Positions 34,863 to 38,300 of a DNA stretch of 64,000 nucleotides are shown in pieces. The notes under the pieces are model-generated. The model worked only from the letters and a program-made list of their open reading frames with translations, had not been told where the DNA came from and did no database searches. Position 1 is the first letter of the stretch, and every line of letters begins with the position of its first letter. The DNA is from Euryarchaeota archaeon UBA463 (GTDB taxonomy: Archaea; Thermoplasmatota; Poseidoniia; Poseidoniales; Thalassarchaeaceae). The DNA lies in the NCBI GenBank assembly GCA_002501805.1, contig DAOI01000003.1:31261-95260 (forward strand), given 5' to 3'. The position numbers and the translations under genes are program-made.

Positions 34863-36464
34863 ATGGCAAAGCACCGTGTAGGTGATCGTAGGATAATCAG
34901 CATTAGTATTCCAGAGGAAACCGCTAGGAAGCTAGACCGTAGAGTGGGCAAGGGCAAGACAAGAGGAAGGTCCGCTACAATTTCTAAGATGATTGAAGAT
35001 GGACTATCGTCAAGAAATTCTCATCAAGAGGACATCGAAGTCTCAACCCATCAGAGATCTGCTAGGGCGAATCCAGATGAAAATAGGATCGAGATTGATA
35101 CCATGGGAGAAGTAGTCGTGCCTGCAGATAGATACTATGGAGCTCAGACAGCCAGATCTCTTGAGAACTTCGATATCGGTGACGACATAATGCCAAGAGC
35201 AGTAATCAGAGCCTTTGGGATTCTAAAGAAAGCAGCAGCAGAAACCAACTCCCAACTTGGTCAGCTGGATGGCAACATCGCCTCTCTGATTTCCTCATCA
35301 TGCGATGAGGTAATTTCAGGTAGTCTCGACGGACACTTCCCACTAAGGATTTGGCAGACAGGATCAGGAACTCAAACAAATATGAATGCAAATGAAGTCA
35401 TCGCTAATAGGGCAATAGAGCTCGCAGGAGGAGAATTGGGCAGTAAGACCCCAGTCCACCCAAATGATCACGTGAACAGGGCGCAGTCTAGTAATGACAC
35501 ATTTCCAACAGCAATGCACATATCTTCAGCCGAGCAAATCACGAATCAATTACTCCCTTCAGTTCATCATCTAAGGGACGCTTTGGAGGCCAAAGCGCAG
35601 GAGTTTTACTCTATTGTCAAGATTGGCAGGACACACCTCATGGATGCAGTGCCACTTACTCTCGGTCAAGAGTTCTCAGGATACGTGTACATGTTGGACG
35701 CTGATATTCGGAGGATAGAGTTCGCATTGGCTGATCTATTCGAACTAGCGTTAGGGGGGACCGCCGTCGGAACTGGATTGAATACCCATCCCGACTTTTC
35801 AGAAAAGGTCGCCAACAGTATTTCTCAACAAACCGGCCTGCCATTCATCAGTGCAGAGAACAAGTTCTCTCAGTTAGCAGCCCATGATGCAATTGTCTCC
35901 GCATCGGGAGCACTAAACACCCTTGCGGTTTCATTAATGAAGATTGCAAACGACATCAGATGGCTCGGTTCTGGCCCTAGATGCGGAATCGGAGAACTGT
36001 CCTTGCCTGCCAATGAACCAGGATCCAGTATTATGCCAGGAAAGGTCAATCCCACTCAGTCCGAGGCTATGACGATGGTATGCTGCCAAGTTATGGGCAA
36101 CCATGCAGCCATATCCATCGGAGGTAGCCAAGGTAATTTCGAATTGAATGTATTCAAGCCGATGATGATTCATAACCTGCTCCATTCAATCAGAATCCTG
36201 TCAGACAGCTGTCGCTCGTTCACTTCCAAGTGTGTTAACGGATTAGTCGCTAATGAAGAGAAGATTTCCGAGCATTTGGAGAACTCTCTGATGTTGGTAA
36301 CCGCACTTAATCCTCACATTGGATACGATAACGCCGCGAAGATTGCCAAGCACGCCCACCAGAATAACCTAACACTCAGGGAGAGTGCCTTGAGACTGGG
36401 GTTGGTTACCGAAGAACAGTTCGATCACTGGGTCAAGCCAGAGTCAATGACAGGAAGTAGCTAG
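34863..36464 (+). CDS. fumC: Fumarate hydratase class II with an N-terminal ribbon-helix-helix-like extension
   Basis: [47 protein letters not shown] is the fumarase C signature. FumC-like N-terminal residues ([29 protein letters not shown]) start only at about residue 75. The extra N-terminus [40 protein letters not shown] has the beta-strand / helix / loop / helix pattern of CopG/Arc/MetJ RHH domains. Confidence 0.85.
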
Positions 36465-36494
36465 CTCTCATCACGAAAAAAATTATTTTGAAAG

Positions 36495-37185
36495 GGCCAA
36501 AGGTGGGAGCAGCAGGGGGTTCTGCTTGGGGAAGCTTTCCCCCCTGCGTACTCCGCAGGGTCCGGTTCCTCATCTCCAAAGGAGATGATTTCCCGGGTAG
36601 ACGACTCTGGAACCACTAGGGTTCCTTCGCCATTTTTCTGGACGTTTGGGTAATATCCCCCCAGGGGATTGCTCCCCTGTCGCCCTCCTCGATTCACTCC
36701 ATGGCTAGTATCACCATTTTGTTTCGTCGATCGGTACCGGTCCTCCACAGGTCTCCCTGCTCTCGTTCCCGGTGCGTTTCCCTAAGTTTCCTTCCCCTTC
36801 CTTGCGTCCGGTTATCTCCACTTCGTTTCCCGCACTCGTGCTCCAAGATTGCATCCATCTCTGGATGCCTTCCCTTCCTTCGTGTACCTTTGCAGTATGG
36901 TTTTCTGGTACGGTTTATGTTTTCCCCCCGAAGGGTTCGGTTCCGTTTTCCCCAGCTTTCCCCATTGCTTCTTTCCCTTCCTTGCGTCCGATCTTCCCAC
37001 ATTGGTTCTACTGCTGCCTATTCACCCACAGGTGATTTGGCTATTCCCCGCGCTCTTTTCAGAGCACGGATCTACCGTTCCGACTTTGCGGATCAGTTGT
37101 TGTGGCCCGCGGGTTTGCCGAAGCGCGCCCACACCACTCCCCCGGAGCGGCAAAGTCAACAGGGCAAGCGGCGGCAAATAAACCT
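36495..37185. other. ORF-free, strongly strand-asymmetric, hairpin- and repeat-rich interval; candidate large structured ncRNA of unknown class
   Basis: It spans ~690 bp between convergent genes. It is pyrimidine-rich on the + strand (GA-rich on -), has no credible ORF, and holds a run of perfect hairpins: CCCTGCG-tactc-CGCAGGG, CATCTCC-aaa-GGAGATG, GGAACC-acta-GGTTCC, ATCCCC-cca-GGGGAT, GCATCCA-tctc-TGGATGC. It also has three copies of CCCTTCCTT(G)CGT(C)C-like motif at about 36796, 36870 and 36975. Confidence 0.3.
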
Positions 37186-37201
37186 TTCGTTCAGTAACAC
37201 G

Positions 37202-37247
37202 TTTACAGTGGAAATAGGGGTCAGTAAATGTTAATTTCCACTGTAAA
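37202..37247 (-). terminator. 14-bp perfect inverted repeat (TTTACAGTGGAAAT ... ATTTCCACTGTAAA, 18-nt spacer) just 3' of the beta-propeller gene; ORB-like core
   Basis: A perfect palindromic hairpin immediately after the stop of the minus-strand gene at 37251, followed on the minus strand by TTTATTT. The arms contain CAGTGGAAA, and GGGGTC follows. Confidence 0.35.
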
Positions 37248-37250
37248 TTT

Positions 37251-38300
37251 TCATTCCCTCAGTCTTCTCAAACGCTCCATAAGGAGGCTTCTTTCCCCTT
37301 CTCGATGTCTTGGCCTCATATCCTCATGGTCAAACCTATTCTCATATCTCTCTTCTACCAGGAAAACCCTTCCAGACTCGTCTCCAAAAACTATGGCCTC
37401 CTCCTTGAAATCACAAACCACAATTCTATCTGGGTGTTCGAAGACCTGTGAGTAAACCCCTCCTGGCGATATCGAAAAGAATCTTGACTTACCCTCCCAA
37501 GTCTGAACCCACAGATCAATACCATTCGGAGCAACTCCCAATGACAATACTTCGCTATCTAGATCAATTTCTTTCTCGCCCCATAGAATTCGGCCATTTC
37601 GATCACCGCTCGCCCAACCGTCATCTATGCTGATGATCGAGGTAATCAATCCACTTACCTTTCCACATAAATCTCCTTCAGAATTACAAATACTACCGTC
37701 ACTCAATCCGAACATTATCGTCTCAGGCCCATCGCAACCGATGGTAACAGGAGACACAACGTCAAGTGAATGATAATTCAGTATTCCATCCCTGCCTATT
37801 TTGATAAAGCCACAGGAAGGCCTTCCTATCCCAATCTCTATTCCATTGTTGACTCCCATATGCCACCCTTTCTCGGCGAATGACCATCTTTCAATCAGCT
37901 CGCCTTGGCTATTGAATTTCCAAAGTGTTGACTCAGTGTAGTCAGAGATATCAATTTCATAGACAGAGGATAATGCCCAAATGAAACCATCCCAGATTGT
38001 TACACTATCGCTGGAACCTTCCAGTTGCGAGCTCCACAAAACTTCACCCGTGCTTATCTTAACGGCCACCAAATTAGATGAGCAGGAGGCATAGAGCACT
38101 TCTTCTGAAACTGCTAAATCTGATATCGGTCCATCCAATTTCAGTCCCAGTATCTGCTCACCAGTCTCAATTGACCATGAGTTAATCGCACCTTCTTTTG
38201 AACCAACAATGACTGTTCCCGACTCAAATATAATGCAACTACAACAACTTCCAACGTCCCTGATGAATGATGAAGCGTCACTAAGTCTTCTGTCTCCCAC
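37251..38300 (-). CDS. Beta-propeller repeat protein (PQQ/WD40-like)
   Basis: 349 aa of repeated beta-strand-rich ~40-aa units with recurrent W/G-D motifs (LWSSQ, IWDGFIWA, ILWGEK). Confidence 0.5.
   Translation of the reverse strand: MGDRRLSDASSFIRDVGSCCSCIIFESGTVIVGSKEGAINSWSIETGEQILGLKLDGPISDLAVSEEVLYASCSSNLVAVKISTGEVLWSSQLEGSSDSVTIWDGFIWALSSVYEIDISDYTESTLWKFNSQGELIERWSFAEKGWHMGVNNGIEIGIGRPSCGFIKIGRDGILNYHSLDVVSPVTIGCDGPETIMFGLSDGSICNSEGDLCGKVSGLITSIISIDDGWASGDRNGRILWGEKEIDLDSEVLSLGVAPNGIDLWVQTWEGKSRFFSISPGGVYSQVFEHPDRIVVCDFKEEAIVFGDESGRVFLVEERYENRFDHEDMRPRHREGERSLLMERLRRLRE

What the first reader, a model, noticed from the sequence alone, without database searches (positions are those of the whole stretch)
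36495..37185. 690-bp ORF-free, pyrimidine/purine strand-skewed interval packed with perfect hairpins and a thrice-repeated CCCTTCCTTGCGTCCG-like motif: candidate novel large structured ncRNA
Convergent intergenic spacers elsewhere in this window are 50-190 bp. This one is about 780 bp between the fumC stop (36464) and the beta-propeller gene stop (37251). It has no credible ORF on either strand; every six-frame ORF here is low-complexity P/S/R-rich. Its composition is unlike the surrounding coding DNA: the + strand is C/T-rich, so a minus-strand transcript would be G/A-rich with many GNRA-like GAAA/GGAA segments. The first 130 bp contain four consecutive perfect hairpins: CCCTGCG-tactc-CGCAGGG at 36542, CATCTCC-aaa-GGAGATG at 36571, GGAACC-acta-GGTTCC at 36610, and ATCCCC-cca-GGGGAT at 36654. 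More lie further in, including GCATCCA-tctc-TGGATGC at 36851 and a CCGAA-ggg-TTCGG UUCG-like loop at 36929. A motif TTCCCTTCCTTGCGTCCG(G/A)T occurs at about 36796 and 36975, with a degenerate third copy at about 36870. Oligo-T tracts at both ends (about 36480-36495 on +, about 37181-37190 on -) look like terminators of the flanking genes, so the interval is an independent unit. I could not match it to RNase P RNA, SRP RNA or a group II intron.
Basis: seen in the sequence. Interest (0 to 1): 0.78.

Follow-up and report, generated by a model that had tools for sequence, protein, structure and literature searches.

The report
New large structured RNA in marine archaea
The gap holds a roughly 675-base gene for a highly conserved, intricately folded non-coding RNA that matches no known RNA family and occurs once per genome in the abundant ocean archaea called Marine Group IIb.

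Summary
The 786-nt gap between fumC and a beta-propeller gene holds one ncRNA gene on the minus strand, about 37151 to 36476. It has its own archaeal BRE/TATA promoter and an oligo-U terminator.

About 125 homologous full-length copies were collected: 114 distinct sequences in 31 clusters at 95% identity, 479-894 nt long. Every one lies in Thalassarchaeaceae / Poseidoniales (MGIIb) DNA, once per genome, in the same gene neighbourhood.

Within sub-lineages the RNA is more conserved than the flanking coding genes (88-90% nt identity against 49-81%). It has seven near-invariant blocks. Covariation support is strong: 75 of 117 proposed pairs show compensatory double changes, against 20-31 in slid controls.

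There is no coding signal and no Rfam 15 match. Published metatranscriptomics reports canonical RNase P and SRP RNAs in this lineage, so it is neither of those.

The centre carries 1-7 copies of a purine-rich, GNRA-capped hairpin module whose sequence fits a K-loop-like pattern (GA-loop-GA). My best guess is a ribonucleoprotein scaffold RNA. The function is unproven and there is no transcript evidence here. Identity with the published 229-nt "Tan1" RNA could not be tested.

The parts
36476..37151 (-). Predicted transcript of the ncRNA, about 675 nt. Its 5' end lies at about 37151 +/- 3, the G of UUGCCGCUCC. Its 3' end lies in the U-run 36476-36482.
   Evidence: Sequence conservation across 31 clusters begins abruptly at TTGCCGC, 28 nt downstream of the TATA centre, and fades after CUCCCACC..GGCCC and the U-run. 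Alignments A1, A4 and A5 give the family boundaries.
37176..37189 (-). Archaeal promoter: BRE (CGAAAGG, 37183-37189) plus TATA box (TTTATTT, 37176-37182).
   Evidence: RGAAAGGTTTAW is kept at the same distance from the conserved RNA start in representatives of all 31 clusters, while the spacer between it and the start is free to vary. That this is a BRE/TATA is inferred from the known archaeal consensus.
37202..37247 (.). Conserved palindromic element (..CAGTGGAAATTAAC..N..ATTTCCACTG..) between the propeller stop codon and the promoter. It could be an operator or an mRNA 3' hairpin.
   Evidence: A perfect 14-bp inverted repeat (I2). The GGAAAT..ATTTCC core, and loop bases too, are conserved in every lineage that has flank sequence. 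It is unique in the window. Its function was not tested.
36476..36482 (-). Oligo-U tract (7 U on the RNA strand), the probable archaeal terminator. It lies 12 nt from the fumC stop codon.
   Evidence: Sequence. U-runs sit at the same place in the window's sub-lineage. Other lineages instead carry an extension of about 70-80 nt with a GC hairpin and a TTTC tail.
37129..37139 (-). Invariant block 1, GAGUGGUGUGG.
   Evidence: At least 93% weighted conservation over 114 sequences. It is invariant in loci found through the unrelated 3' pattern. Only the very divergent L182 and L186 carry U to G at one position.
37101..37112 (-). Invariant block 2, CCGCGGGCCACA.
37016..37153 (-). 5' domain. It contains helix P1 (37148-37153 with 37072-37077), a small hairpin CUCC-GGG-GGAG, a UUCG hairpin, hairpin A (37079-37092), the GAAA-capped hairpin B (37048-37069) and hairpin C (37016-37041).
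   Evidence: Compensatory changes occur in P1 (C:G to U:A), in the small hairpin (two independent C:G to U:A changes) and in hairpins A, B and C. An alternative lower pairing for the 5' end cannot be excluded.
36962..37005 (-). Module 1: a purine-rich hairpin with the core CGGAC-GCAA-GGAAGG (36976-36991) capped by a GNRA tetraloop.
   Evidence: The basal stem covaries (helix 7). The module consensus is YY-R-GA-C-GNRA-G-GA-A-GG, with 254 instances in 107 of 114 RNAs against 17 in shuffles.
36945..36951 (-). Invariant block 3, GGAAAAC, the 3' part of CUGGGGAAAAC.
   Evidence: The flanking helices 36961-36899 covary (helices 10-12).
36892..37014 (-). Long-range helix LR1 (37009-37014 with 36892-36897), which encloses module 1 and the UUCG hairpin (36926-36935).
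   Evidence: All 6 pairs show double compensatory changes and 99% of cells are paired (helix 6).
36733..36888 (-). Central domain closed by long-range helix LR2 (36884-36888 with 36733-36737). It contains the GAGA hairpin 36851-36868, helix LR3 (36831-36835 with 36772-36776), module 2 (36782-36825, core 36796-36811) and the GAGA-capped hairpin 36748-36759.
   Evidence: LR2 varies as GGUAC/GUACC, AGUGC/GCACU and GAUAC/GUAUC. LR3 shows 5 pair types. The hairpin at 36748-36759 has 3 of 4 pairs compensated.
36743..36748 (-). Invariant block 4, GUGGAG (GUGGAGGAC in most lineages). It may pair with GUCRUCUAC at 36597-36605.
   Evidence: The pairing was proposed by RNAalifold, but both strands are invariant, so covariation cannot test it.
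36562..36730 (-). 3' domain peripheral hairpins: 36689-36730 (nested stems), 36662-36679 (GGGGA-GCAA-UCCCC), 36609-36625 and 36571-36587, plus helix LR5 (36593-36596 with 36562-36565).
   Evidence: These are the strongest covariation signals in the family (top score, helices 22-27, helices 1-2). In some lineages these hairpins are replaced by extra modules.
36502..36556 (-). 3' core. It comprises invariant GCGGAGU (36550-36556), helix GCAGGGGG/CCCCCUGC (36512-36547) closing a loop with invariant CCCCA, and the invariant tail UGCUCCCACC (36502-36511).
   Evidence: The helix is 98-99% paired with G:C to A:U compensations. In L062 and L182 it is extended to 13-14 bp with wholly different sequence.

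Best explanation
The interval encodes a single, independently transcribed, highly structured non-coding RNA. It is about 675 nt here and 479-894 nt across the family. It is specific to Marine Group IIb archaea (Thalassarchaeaceae, order Poseidoniales).

What is shown:
- It is a conserved gene-sized element with a fixed position: M32 peptidase > beta-propeller > RNA > < fumC.
- It occurs once per genome.
- It is non-coding and lies on the minus strand.
- It has a multi-domain secondary structure supported by many compensatory base changes.
- It has seven near-invariant sequence blocks.

What is inferred from sequence:
- Transcription starts about 28 nt downstream of the centre of a conserved BRE/TATA box.
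- Transcription ends at an oligo-U tract.

What is inferred about mechanism (about 0.45 likely):
- The RNA is the scaffold of a ribonucleoprotein particle.
- A conserved 5'/3' core, the invariant blocks brought together by long-range helices, carries the essential activity or partner-binding surface.
- A variable number (1-7) of peripheral purine-rich hairpin modules act as repeated docking sites for a protein. The module reads 5'-CC-G-GA-[C-GNRA-G]-GA-A-GG-3'.
- The module sequence fits the K-loop pattern: tandem G.A/A.G next to a terminal loop, an A.G third pair, and a C-G/C-G closing stem. Archaeal L7Ae-family proteins recognise that pattern, so L7Ae or a paralogue is the most likely partner.
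- The neighbouring, co-distributed beta-propeller protein is a second candidate partner.

What the particle does is unknown.
For: Conservation.
- The gap has the same length and is 90-95% identical in loci whose propeller protein is only 63-84% identical.
- At the nucleotide level the RNA is 90% and 88% identical against 70-81% and 49-70% for the flanking coding genes. At the deepest split it is 66% against 48-67%.

Distribution.
- A scan with the 3' block found 42 genome loci. About 37 are in Poseidoniales, Thalassarchaeaceae or Euryarchaeota MAGs, one per genome. About 5 are chance hits in bacteria.
- Each pattern's hits carry the other's blocks.
- Loci reached only through the propeller protein also have the RNA, including variants that neither pattern matches.
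- A covariance model of the 3' domain hits all 64 RNA-bearing sources once each. It hits none of 6 false-positive loci and nothing else in the 64-kb window.

Structure.
- RNAalifold on 23 sequences gives 137 pairs, 41 of them with double changes.
- A curated structure on 21 diverse sequences gives 87% of cells paired, against 33-48% for slid controls.
- In that structure 75 of 117 pairs have double changes, against 20-31 for slid controls.
- Its covariation score is 0.40, against 0.08-0.12 for slid controls, and 0 of 500 shuffles reach it.
- The 3' domain on 55 distinct sequences is 90% paired, and 0 of 500 shuffles reach its score.

Strand. 206 G.U cells against 57 A.C cells.

Non-coding.
- Variable sites are spread 53/51/60 over codon phases (p = 0.66).
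- Indels are mostly 1-2 nt.
- The ORFs have no Pfam hit.

Promoter and terminator. Their positions are conserved.

Modules.
- There are 254 instances in 107 of 114 RNAs.
- The positions that would form the G.A/A.G pairs are 80-96% conserved.
- Copy number is 1-7.

Not RNase P or SRP RNA. No Rfam hit. Canonical RNase P and SRP RNAs were reported in MG-II Thalassoarchaea (PMC5069720).
Against: - No transcript evidence could be obtained here. Promoter, start and end are inferred from sequence only.
- The protein-scaffold role and the K-loop reading rest on sequence-pattern resemblance recalled from the K-turn literature, not on a motif-scoring tool or an experiment.
- With the C-G pair closing the GNRA loop formed, the module is a symmetric 3x3 purine loop without the 3-nt bulge of a true K-turn.
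- The low-GC lineages (L062, L085 and their relatives) have a degenerate module 1 (CCAAAC-GAAA-GAAUGG) and lack module 2. The modules therefore cannot be essential to the core function.
- Several pairings among the invariant blocks, and the pairing of the extreme 5' end, are ambiguous.
- All sequences come from MAGs and metagenomes.
- The adjacency to the propeller gene is part of a block of four syntenic genes. On its own it says little.
Confidence: 0.5

Rival explanations
1. A large ribozyme or RNA-only assembly. The invariant blocks would form a catalytic or self-assembling core, as in RNase P or group I/II introns, or in the homo-oligomeric GOLLD, ROOL and OLE particles. The modules would be tertiary-contact elements (GNRA loops and A-rich strands) rather than protein sites.
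For: - There are seven near-invariant blocks, several of them unpaired or in helices that never vary.
- There are many GNRA and UUCG caps and A-rich linkers.
- There are long-range helices and a likely pseudoknot relation between GUGGAGGAC/GUCRUCUAC and helix LR2.
- Size and ornateness are comparable to OLE, ROOL and GOLLD (PMC12286853, listed).
Against: - No resemblance to any ribozyme model in Rfam.
- No obvious substrate or processing context.
- Invariance equally fits protein or RNA partner binding.
- Nothing here tests catalysis or multimerisation.
Confidence: 0.17
2. A regulatory sponge or decoy RNA in the style of CsrB/RsmZ or 6S RNA. Its repeated purine-rich modules would titrate an RNA-binding protein or a pyrimidine-rich RNA. 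Expression would be controlled through the conserved palindrome upstream of the promoter.
For: - Module copy number varies from 1 to 7 between lineages, including perfect 69-nt tandem duplications. This is typical of sponge RNAs.
- A conserved operator-like palindrome lies just upstream of the BRE/TATA.
Against: - Sponge RNAs do not usually carry a 300-400-nt invariant, covarying core.
- Some lineages have no consensus module at all.
- No candidate titrated factor is known in archaea.
Confidence: 0.15
3. A cis-acting element: a long structured 3' UTR of the beta-propeller mRNA, or a convergent antisense regulator of fumC, rather than an independent RNA gene.
For: - It has the same orientation as the propeller gene and lies only about 100 nt downstream of it in every locus.
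- Its 3' end lies 12 nt from the fumC stop codon.
Against: - A conserved BRE/TATA sits at a fixed distance from the point where conservation begins, and the segment between them is variable.
- The RNA is far better conserved than the propeller coding sequence.
- No part of the conserved RNA overlaps fumC.
Confidence: 0.06
4. Not an RNA at all. It would be a decaying or unrecognised protein gene, or a DNA-level element such as a replication origin, a repeat array or an integration site.
For: - Public gene callers have placed ORFs of 107-289 aa over it, on either strand.
- It contains repeats, and metagenome assemblies often break there.
Against: - No codon periodicity, frame-breaking indels between close relatives, and no Pfam hit.
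- Compensatory changes and the G.U over A.C asymmetry are RNA-level signatures.
- There are no ORB-like repeats, no AT-rich unwinding element and no cdc6 nearby.
Confidence: 0.02
5. A very divergent member of a universal RNA: RNase P RNA, SRP RNA or an rRNA fragment.
For: It is single-copy and slowly evolving, with 5' and 3' ends apparently brought together. A GGAGGACCGG segment vaguely recalls RNase P CR-I, and an ACGAGAG..GGAGGACCGG segment vaguely recalls the sarcin-ricin loop (sequence inspection only).
Against: - No Rfam match even at E up to 10, in the window or in 5 divergent homologues.
- The CR-I AAAGUCC motif and the CR-V motif are absent from the conserved core.
- Canonical RNase P RNA (292-306 nt) and SRP RNA (305-315 nt) are reported as expressed in MG-II Thalassoarchaea (PMC5069720).
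Confidence: 0.02

Closest known systems
OLE RNA (ornate, large, extremophilic; Rfam RF01071), with GOLLD and ROOL as the other large bacterial ncRNAs of unknown function
   Same: - Length of about 600 nt or more.
- Many covarying helices interspersed with invariant stretches.
- Restricted to one lineage.
- A stand-alone gene next to a conserved partner-candidate gene.
- OLE uses a K-turn to bind a protein partner (PMC9723947, listed), which parallels the K-loop-like modules proposed here.
   Different: - No sequence or structure match to any of these families.
- Archaeal rather than bacterial.
- Strongly purine-rich.
- Contains a hairpin module of variable copy number.
- Neighbours are unrelated to the oap genes.
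Tan1 (Thalassoarchaea ncRNA 1), an abundant 229-nt ncRNA of unknown function reported from a Red Sea metatranscriptome (Hou et al. 2016, PMC5069720)
   Same: It comes from the same lineage (MG-II / Ca. Thalassoarchaea), is described as having a complex conserved structure and an unknown function, and is not in Rfam.
   Different: - Reported length is 229 nt against about 600-900 nt here.
- Its homologues are 75-79% identical.
- Its sequence and locus could not be retrieved: Table S5 is truncated and the figure is not held. Identity, overlap or independence is therefore untested.
- I estimate about 0.2 that Tan1 is part of this RNA.
Archaeal RNase P RNA (RF00373) and archaeal SRP RNA (RF01857)
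   Same: Single-copy, slowly evolving structured RNAs with invariant cores. In archaea they bind L7Ae through K-turns (established knowledge).
   Different: - No covariance-model match.
- Defining motifs are absent.
- About twice as long.
- The lineage already has canonical versions of both.
K-loop / K-turn L7Ae-binding motifs of archaeal box C/D and H/ACA sRNAs
   Same: The module reads 5'-CC-G-GA-[6-nt loop]-GA-A-GG-3'. That is tandem G.A/A.G next to a terminal loop, an A.G third pair and a G-C closing stem. The key purines are 80-96% conserved over 254 instances.
   Different: - There are no box C/D or ACA motifs and no guide regions.
- The loop can close as C-GNRA-G, which leaves a symmetric 3x3 purine loop with no bulge.
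- Binding was not tested.
- The module is degenerate in the low-GC lineages.
CsrB/RsmZ-type multi-site sponge RNAs
   Same: Repeated short purine-rich hairpin sites whose number differs between species.
   Different: - Those RNAs are bacterial.
- They lack a large conserved core.
- They bind CsrA, which archaea lack (established knowledge).

Membership tests
Archaeal RNase P RNA (RF00373) | Match to the covariance model, with the P4 helix formed by CR-I (GAGGAAAGUCC) and CR-V. | tested here: not met
   No hit at the gathering score or at E up to 10 in the window, and none at E up to 1 in 5 divergent homologues. There is no conserved AAAGUCC; the only AAAGUCC-like string lies in a lineage-specific insertion.
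Archaeal RNase P RNA (RF00373) | It is the only RNase P RNA of the organism. | tested here: not met
   The literature reports nine canonical RNase P RNAs of 292-306 nt expressed in MG-II Euryarchaeota (PMC5069720). Whole MGIIb genomes could not be scanned here.
Archaeal SRP RNA (RF01857) | Match to the covariance model, with helix 8 loops, a GNAR tetraloop and an Alu-domain fold, at about 300 nt. | tested here: not met
   No hit. The length is 479-894 nt. A canonical SRP RNA of 305-315 nt is reported in the lineage.
Group II intron | Domain V/VI consensus, an intron-encoded protein or multiple mobile copies, and an exon context. | tested here: not met
   No hit to the Rfam intron families. It is single-copy and strictly syntenic. 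No reverse transcriptase gene is nearby.
OLE / GOLLD / ROOL / HEARO / raiA and all other Rfam 15 families | Covariance-model match. | tested here: not met
   Zero matches at the gathering score over the 64-kb window. In the region, only two chance-level hits appear (MIR774, E = 1.9; CRISPR-DR63, E = 9.1). There are zero matches in L025, L010, L034, L054 and L030.
Tan1 (Hou et al. 2016) | Sequence identity or overlap with the published 229-nt RNA. | not testable with these tools
   The sequence, coordinates and figure are not available in the held text or supplements.
Structured ncRNA gene (generic) | Conserved secondary structure supported by compensatory substitutions beyond controls. | tested here: met
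   For example, 75 of 117 pairs show double changes against 20-31 in slid controls, and 0 of 500 shuffles reach the observed score.
Structured ncRNA gene (generic) | Absence of coding signal. | tested here: met
   Phase distribution is 53/51/60 (p = 0.66). Indels are 1-2 nt. The ORFs have no Pfam hit.
Structured ncRNA gene (generic) | Own promoter and terminator, and a discrete transcript. | tested here: inconclusive
   A conserved BRE/TATA and a U-run are present at the expected places. No transcriptome data could be consulted. A look-up of an internal ORF in the assembly index found nothing.
K-loop / K-turn (L7Ae site) | Tandem trans sugar-Hoogsteen G.A/A.G pairs flanked by a non-canonical stem on one side and a 3-nt bulge or terminal loop on the other. 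| tested here: inconclusive
   The sequence pattern fits, and the critical purines are conserved (G 94%, A 96%, G 80%, A 96% over 254 instances). The geometry and protein binding cannot be tested with these tools. The alternative C-GNRA-G closure removes the bulge.

The most novel reading that the evidence does not exclude
This would be a previously unrecognised class of large archaeal RNA: the core of a lineage-specific ribonucleoprotein machine or ribozyme in one of the most abundant archaeal groups of the surface ocean. It would be the first 'OLE/GOLLD-like' ornate RNA of unknown function in Archaea, with an expandable array of K-loop-like modules.
Probability: 0.6. Interest if true: 0.88.

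Novelty: categorically new. Interest (0 to 1): 0.82.

Why it matters
Large, highly conserved, intricately folded RNAs are rare. Historically they have turned out to be central machines (ribosome, RNase P, SRP, tmRNA, self-splicing introns) or unexpected new biology (OLE, GOLLD and ROOL particles; HEARO as the guide RNA of IscB). To my knowledge, essentially all such orphan classes known so far are bacterial.

This one belongs to Marine Group IIb archaea. They are uncultured but among the most abundant planktonic archaea, and almost nothing is known about their RNA biology. The RNA evolves more slowly than the housekeeping genes beside it, which implies an important cellular role.

There are also practical consequences. 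Gene callers currently annotate spurious proteins of 107-289 aa over it, and metagenome assemblers often break contigs there. A covariance model for it would improve MGII genome annotation and give a new lineage marker. The family alignment collected here (114 distinct sequences with rich covariation) is already deep enough for 3D modelling, and it makes the question 'what does it bind or do?' directly testable.

Tried and rejected
- Rfam. Searches of the whole window, of the region at E up to 10, and of five divergent homologous loci found nothing meaningful.
- tRNA/tmRNA scan: none.
- Bacterial-type promoter and terminator scan: uninformative for an archaeon.
- Tandem Repeats Finder on the window region: no array. 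The modules are dispersed here and tandem only in L010-type RNAs.
- Viral contig scan with the 3' block: 0 hits.
- fumC protein search, meant to reach MGIIa relatives: the list was saturated with MGIIb sequences at 74% identity or more, so it said nothing about MGIIa.
- Retrieving Tan1's sequence or locus from the paper and its supplements: failed, because the table is truncated.
- Exact-product look-up of an internal 102-aa ORF, hoping to find transcript-sized contigs: nothing on record.
- Search for a covarying partner of the only variable base in invariant block 1 (U23 to G in L182 and L186): the only candidates were artefacts of a helix insertion.
- RNAalifold long-range predictions differed between parameter sets. 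I therefore kept only helices with compensatory support and left the pairings among invariant blocks open.
- Considered and rejected: RNase P RNA, SRP RNA, rRNA fragment, group II intron, CRISPR array, replication origin and pseudogene. Reasons are given under the rival explanations.
- The weak Rfam 'MIR774' hit is simply the 14-bp palindrome at 37202-37247.
Full report
**Observation**

The window has a 786-nt gap between the stop codon of a class II fumarase gene (fumC, + strand, stop at 36464) and the stop codon of a PQQ/WD40-like beta-propeller gene (- strand, stop at 37251).
- The + strand of the gap is pyrimidine-rich, with GC skew down to -0.31 and AT skew down to -0.58. The minus-strand RNA is 64% purine.
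- The ORFs that overlap the gap (177, 110, 102 and 95 aa) have no Pfam match.
- The other apparent long gaps in the window are filled by small genes.
- The minus strand folds 4.1 sd better than dinucleotide shuffles and the plus strand 2.3 sd better (20 shuffles each).
- Rfam 15 gives no match at gathering thresholds anywhere in the 64 kb. In the region at E up to 10 it gives only two chance-level hits.
- There are no tRNAs.

**Organism and conservation**

Homologues of the propeller protein are named Candidatus Thalassarchaeaceae, that is Marine Group IIb, order Poseidoniales.
- In syntenic loci whose propeller protein is only 84% or 63% identical, the gap has the same length (785 nt). Its DNA is 90-95% identical.
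- At the nucleotide level, the RNA region is 90% identical to L005, where the flanking coding genes are 70-81% identical.
- It is 88% identical to L020, where the flanking genes are 49-70% identical.
- At the deepest split (L025) it is 66% identical, against 48-67% for the flanking genes.
- The element therefore evolves more slowly than its protein-coding neighbours within sub-lineages. At depth it retains invariant blocks.

**Family collection**

- An exact scan of one genome per species with a 19-nt 3' block returned 42 loci. About 37 are in Poseidoniales, Thalassarchaeaceae or 'Euryarchaeota' MAGs, one per genome. About 5 are chance hits in bacteria, as expected for a 19-mer.
One of them, L118, is a false positive.
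- Each set carries the other pattern's blocks.
- Together this gives 125 full-length copies: 114 distinct sequences, 31 clusters at 95% identity and 6 clusters at 80%. Lengths are 479-894 nt.
- Low-GC and other divergent lineages (L062, L085, L069) are included. fumC cluster names place L062 in Thalassarchaeaceae.
- A profile search with the propeller protein reached 168 proteins. Each of the three new loci that had enough flank (L182, L185, L186) also has the RNA. These include variants that neither DNA pattern matches.
- The gene order M32 peptidase > propeller > RNA > < fumC < PPIase is kept in every locus. Conservation is therefore strictly syntenic, not synteny-independent.
- A covariance model of the 3' domain hits all 64 RNA-bearing sources exactly once (76-125 bits). 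It hits none of six false-positive loci and nothing else in the window.
- Whether Poseidoniaceae (MGIIa) have the RNA could not be tested. The fumC search saturated within MGIIb.

**It is an RNA, on the minus strand, and non-coding**

- RNAalifold on 23 sequences predicts 137 pairs, 41 of them with double compensatory changes.
- I curated 117 pairs in 29 helices, kept because they recur between predictions or show compensation. On a 21-sequence alignment of maximal diversity they give the following.

| Measure | Observed | Controls |
|---|---|---|
| Cells paired | 87.1% | 33-48% when partners are slid |
| Pairs with changes on both sides | 75 | 20-31 when slid |
| Covariation score | 0.404 | 0.08-0.12 when slid |
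| Shuffles reaching the observed score | 0 of 500 | n/a |

- The 3' domain, realigned to the model over 55 distinct sequences, is 90% paired. Sixteen of its 23 pairs are compensated, and 0 of 500 shuffles reach its score. The usual caveat applies that a model-fitted alignment leans towards its structure.
- G.U/U.G cells outnumber A.C/C.A cells 206 to 57, so the transcript is the window's minus strand.
- Variable sites show no codon periodicity (53/51/60, p = 0.66).
- Indels between close relatives are mostly 1-2 nt.

**Transcription signals (inferred from sequence)**

- On the minus strand, CGAAAGGTTTATTT (37176-37189) matches the archaeal BRE+TATA consensus.
- An equivalent RGAAAGGTTTAW lies at the same distance from the RNA in representatives of all 31 clusters.
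- The 17-20 nt after it differ between lineages. Conservation then starts abruptly at UUGCCGCUCC. This puts the start at about 37151, 28 nt from the TATA centre.
- The RNA ends ...CUGCUGCUCCCACC-UUGGCCC-UUUCAAAAUAAUUUUUUU. The U-run (36476-36482) is 12 nt from the fumC stop codon.
- Other lineages carry instead a 70-80-nt 3' extension with a conserved UAUCAAUCAUUGCGGAG and a GC hairpin.
- Between the propeller stop codon and the promoter lies a 14-bp perfect palindrome (37202-37247). Its GGAAAT..ATTTCC core and loop bases are conserved in all lineages, and it is unique in the window. It may be an operator for a regulator or the propeller mRNA's 3' hairpin.

**Anatomy**

RNA position p corresponds to window coordinate 37159 - p.

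Seven near-invariant blocks:

| Block | Sequence | Window coordinates |
|---|---|---|
| 1 | GAGUGGUGUGG | 37139-37129 |
| 2 | CCGCGGGCCACA | 37112-37101 |
| 3 | GGAAAAC | 36951-36945 |
| 4 | GUGGAG | 36748-36743 |
| 5 | CUACCCGG | 36600-36593 |
| 6 | GCGGAGU | 36556-36550 |
| 7 | UGCUCCCACC | 36511-36502 |

Well-supported helices:
- A 5' helix P1, with a C:G to U:A change.
- A small CUCC-GGG-GGAG hairpin, with two independent compensations.
- Three covarying hairpins in the 5' domain.
- Long-range helix LR1, with 6 of 6 pairs compensated. It encloses module 1 and a UUCG hairpin.
- Long-range helix LR2, which varies as GGUAC/GUACC, AGUGC/GCACU and GAUAC/GUAUC. It encloses a central domain with LR3 and module 2.
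- A series of strongly covarying GNRA-capped hairpins in the 3' half.
- Helix LR5, with a C:G to U:A change in L062 and extensions in L182 and L186.
- A terminal helix GCAGGGGG/CCCCCUGC closing a loop with invariant CCCCA. It becomes 13-14 bp of different sequence in L062 and L182.

Pairings among the invariant blocks (for example GUGGAGGAC with GUCRUCUAC, GGAG(U)G with the 3' CUCC, and GGGCC with the 3' GGCCC) are plausible. They cannot be tested by covariation.

**The repeated motif**

It is the core of a hairpin module.
- Across the family the module reads YY-R-GA-C-GNRA-G-GA-A-GG. There are 254 instances in 107 of 114 RNAs, against about 17 in shuffles.
- Copy number ranges from 1 to 7. 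Extra copies replace peripheral hairpins, and L010 has a perfect 69-nt tandem duplication.
- Low-GC lineages have a degenerate module 1 and no module 2.
- Read as 5'-CC-G-GA-[loop]-GA-A-GG-3', the module fits the K-loop/K-turn consensus: tandem G.A/A.G, an A.G third pair and a C-G closing stem. This comparison comes from my knowledge of the K-turn literature, not from a scoring tool.
- If the C-G pair closing the GNRA loop forms, the module is instead a symmetric 3x3 purine loop.

**What it is not**

- No Rfam family matches the window or five divergent homologues.
- Hou et al. 2016 (PMC5069720) found canonical RNase P RNA (292-306 nt) and SRP RNA (305-315 nt) expressed in MG-II/Thalassoarchaea, so this RNA replaces neither.
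- The same paper reports an abundant unknown 229-nt ncRNA, Tan1, from Thalassoarchaea. Its sequence and locus were not retrievable, so I could not test whether Tan1 is part of this RNA. The length difference makes me estimate about 0.2.
- Other full-text searches (Poseidoniales, Thalassarchaea or Marine Group II combined with ncRNA or structured RNA) returned nothing on such an RNA.

**Mechanism**

- Shown: a conserved, single-copy, non-coding, structured element on the minus strand.
- Inferred: independent transcription from its own promoter.
- Best guess, about 0.45-0.5: a ribonucleoprotein scaffold.
  - The conserved 5'/3' core carries the essential function.
  - The variable K-loop-like modules recruit multiple copies of an L7Ae-type protein.
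  - The co-distributed neighbouring beta-propeller protein is a second candidate partner. Its family was found only in this gene neighbourhood.
- Rivals:
  - A ribozyme or RNA-only assembly (0.17).
  - A sponge or decoy regulator (0.15).
  - A cis-acting UTR or antisense element (0.06).
  - Not an RNA (0.02).
  - A divergent universal RNA (0.02).

**Verdict**

This is a real, previously uncatalogued class of large structured RNA in an abundant marine archaeal lineage. The main uncertainties are the lack of transcript evidence, the unknown function, the untested relation to Tan1, and the unknown presence outside MGIIb.

Noticed in passing
window 37202-37247: A perfect 14-bp inverted repeat (TTTACAGTGGAAAT .. 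ATTTCCACTGTAAA) lies immediately after the propeller stop codon and upstream of the RNA's BRE/TATA. Its GGAAAT..ATTTCC core and loop bases are conserved in all lineages, and it is unique in the window. It may be an operator for a regulator of the RNA, or the propeller mRNA's 3' hairpin. It also explains the chance Rfam 'MIR774' hit.
   Followed up: partly
window 34863-35100 (N-terminus of fumC): The class II fumarase carries an N-terminal extension of about 75-80 aa ([48 protein letters not shown]..) that looks like a ribbon-helix-helix DNA-binding domain. It is conserved in all homologous loci, including the divergent ones. Pfam matches only from residue 82 onward.
   Followed up: no
L010 6128-6997, L011 5995-6636, L182 5206-5715, L183 5301-5624, L185 5284-5709: Public gene calls place hypothetical proteins of 107-289 aa, on either strand, over the RNA. 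None has a Pfam family. They are almost certainly spurious ORFs that arise because the pyrimidine-rich strand has few stop codons.
   Followed up: partly
L002-L004, L015-L019, L184 (contig ends); L011, L024, L050 (N runs): Many metagenome contigs end just after the propeller gene or inside the RNA, and some scaffolds have N-gaps within it. This fits assembly breaks at a region that is near-identical between co-occurring strains and internally repetitive, much like rRNA operons.
   Followed up: no
L026 2748-3266: One MAG has a 479-nt version that lacks everything between module 1 and module 2, about 180 nt including several conserved hairpins. It is either a natural deletion by recombination between the two modules, which share 28 identical nt, or an assembly collapse.
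   Followed up: no
L025 4073-4150, L010 6979-7060 and relatives (downstream of CUCCCACC): Several lineages have a 70-80-nt 3' extension that is absent from the window. It has a GUACC..GUAC hairpin, a conserved UAUCAAUCAUUGCGGAG and a GC-rich hairpin followed by UUUC. The 3' end of the RNA family is therefore not uniform.
   Followed up: partly
window 37251-38300 (-): The beta-propeller protein evolves fast (32-97% identity). It has a conserved basic C-terminal helix (..LMERLRRLRE) and no obvious signal peptide by eye. It was found only in this gene neighbourhood next to the RNA (38 hits with the single sequence, 168 with a profile). It is a candidate partner of the RNA, but this rests on adjacency alone.
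   Followed up: partly
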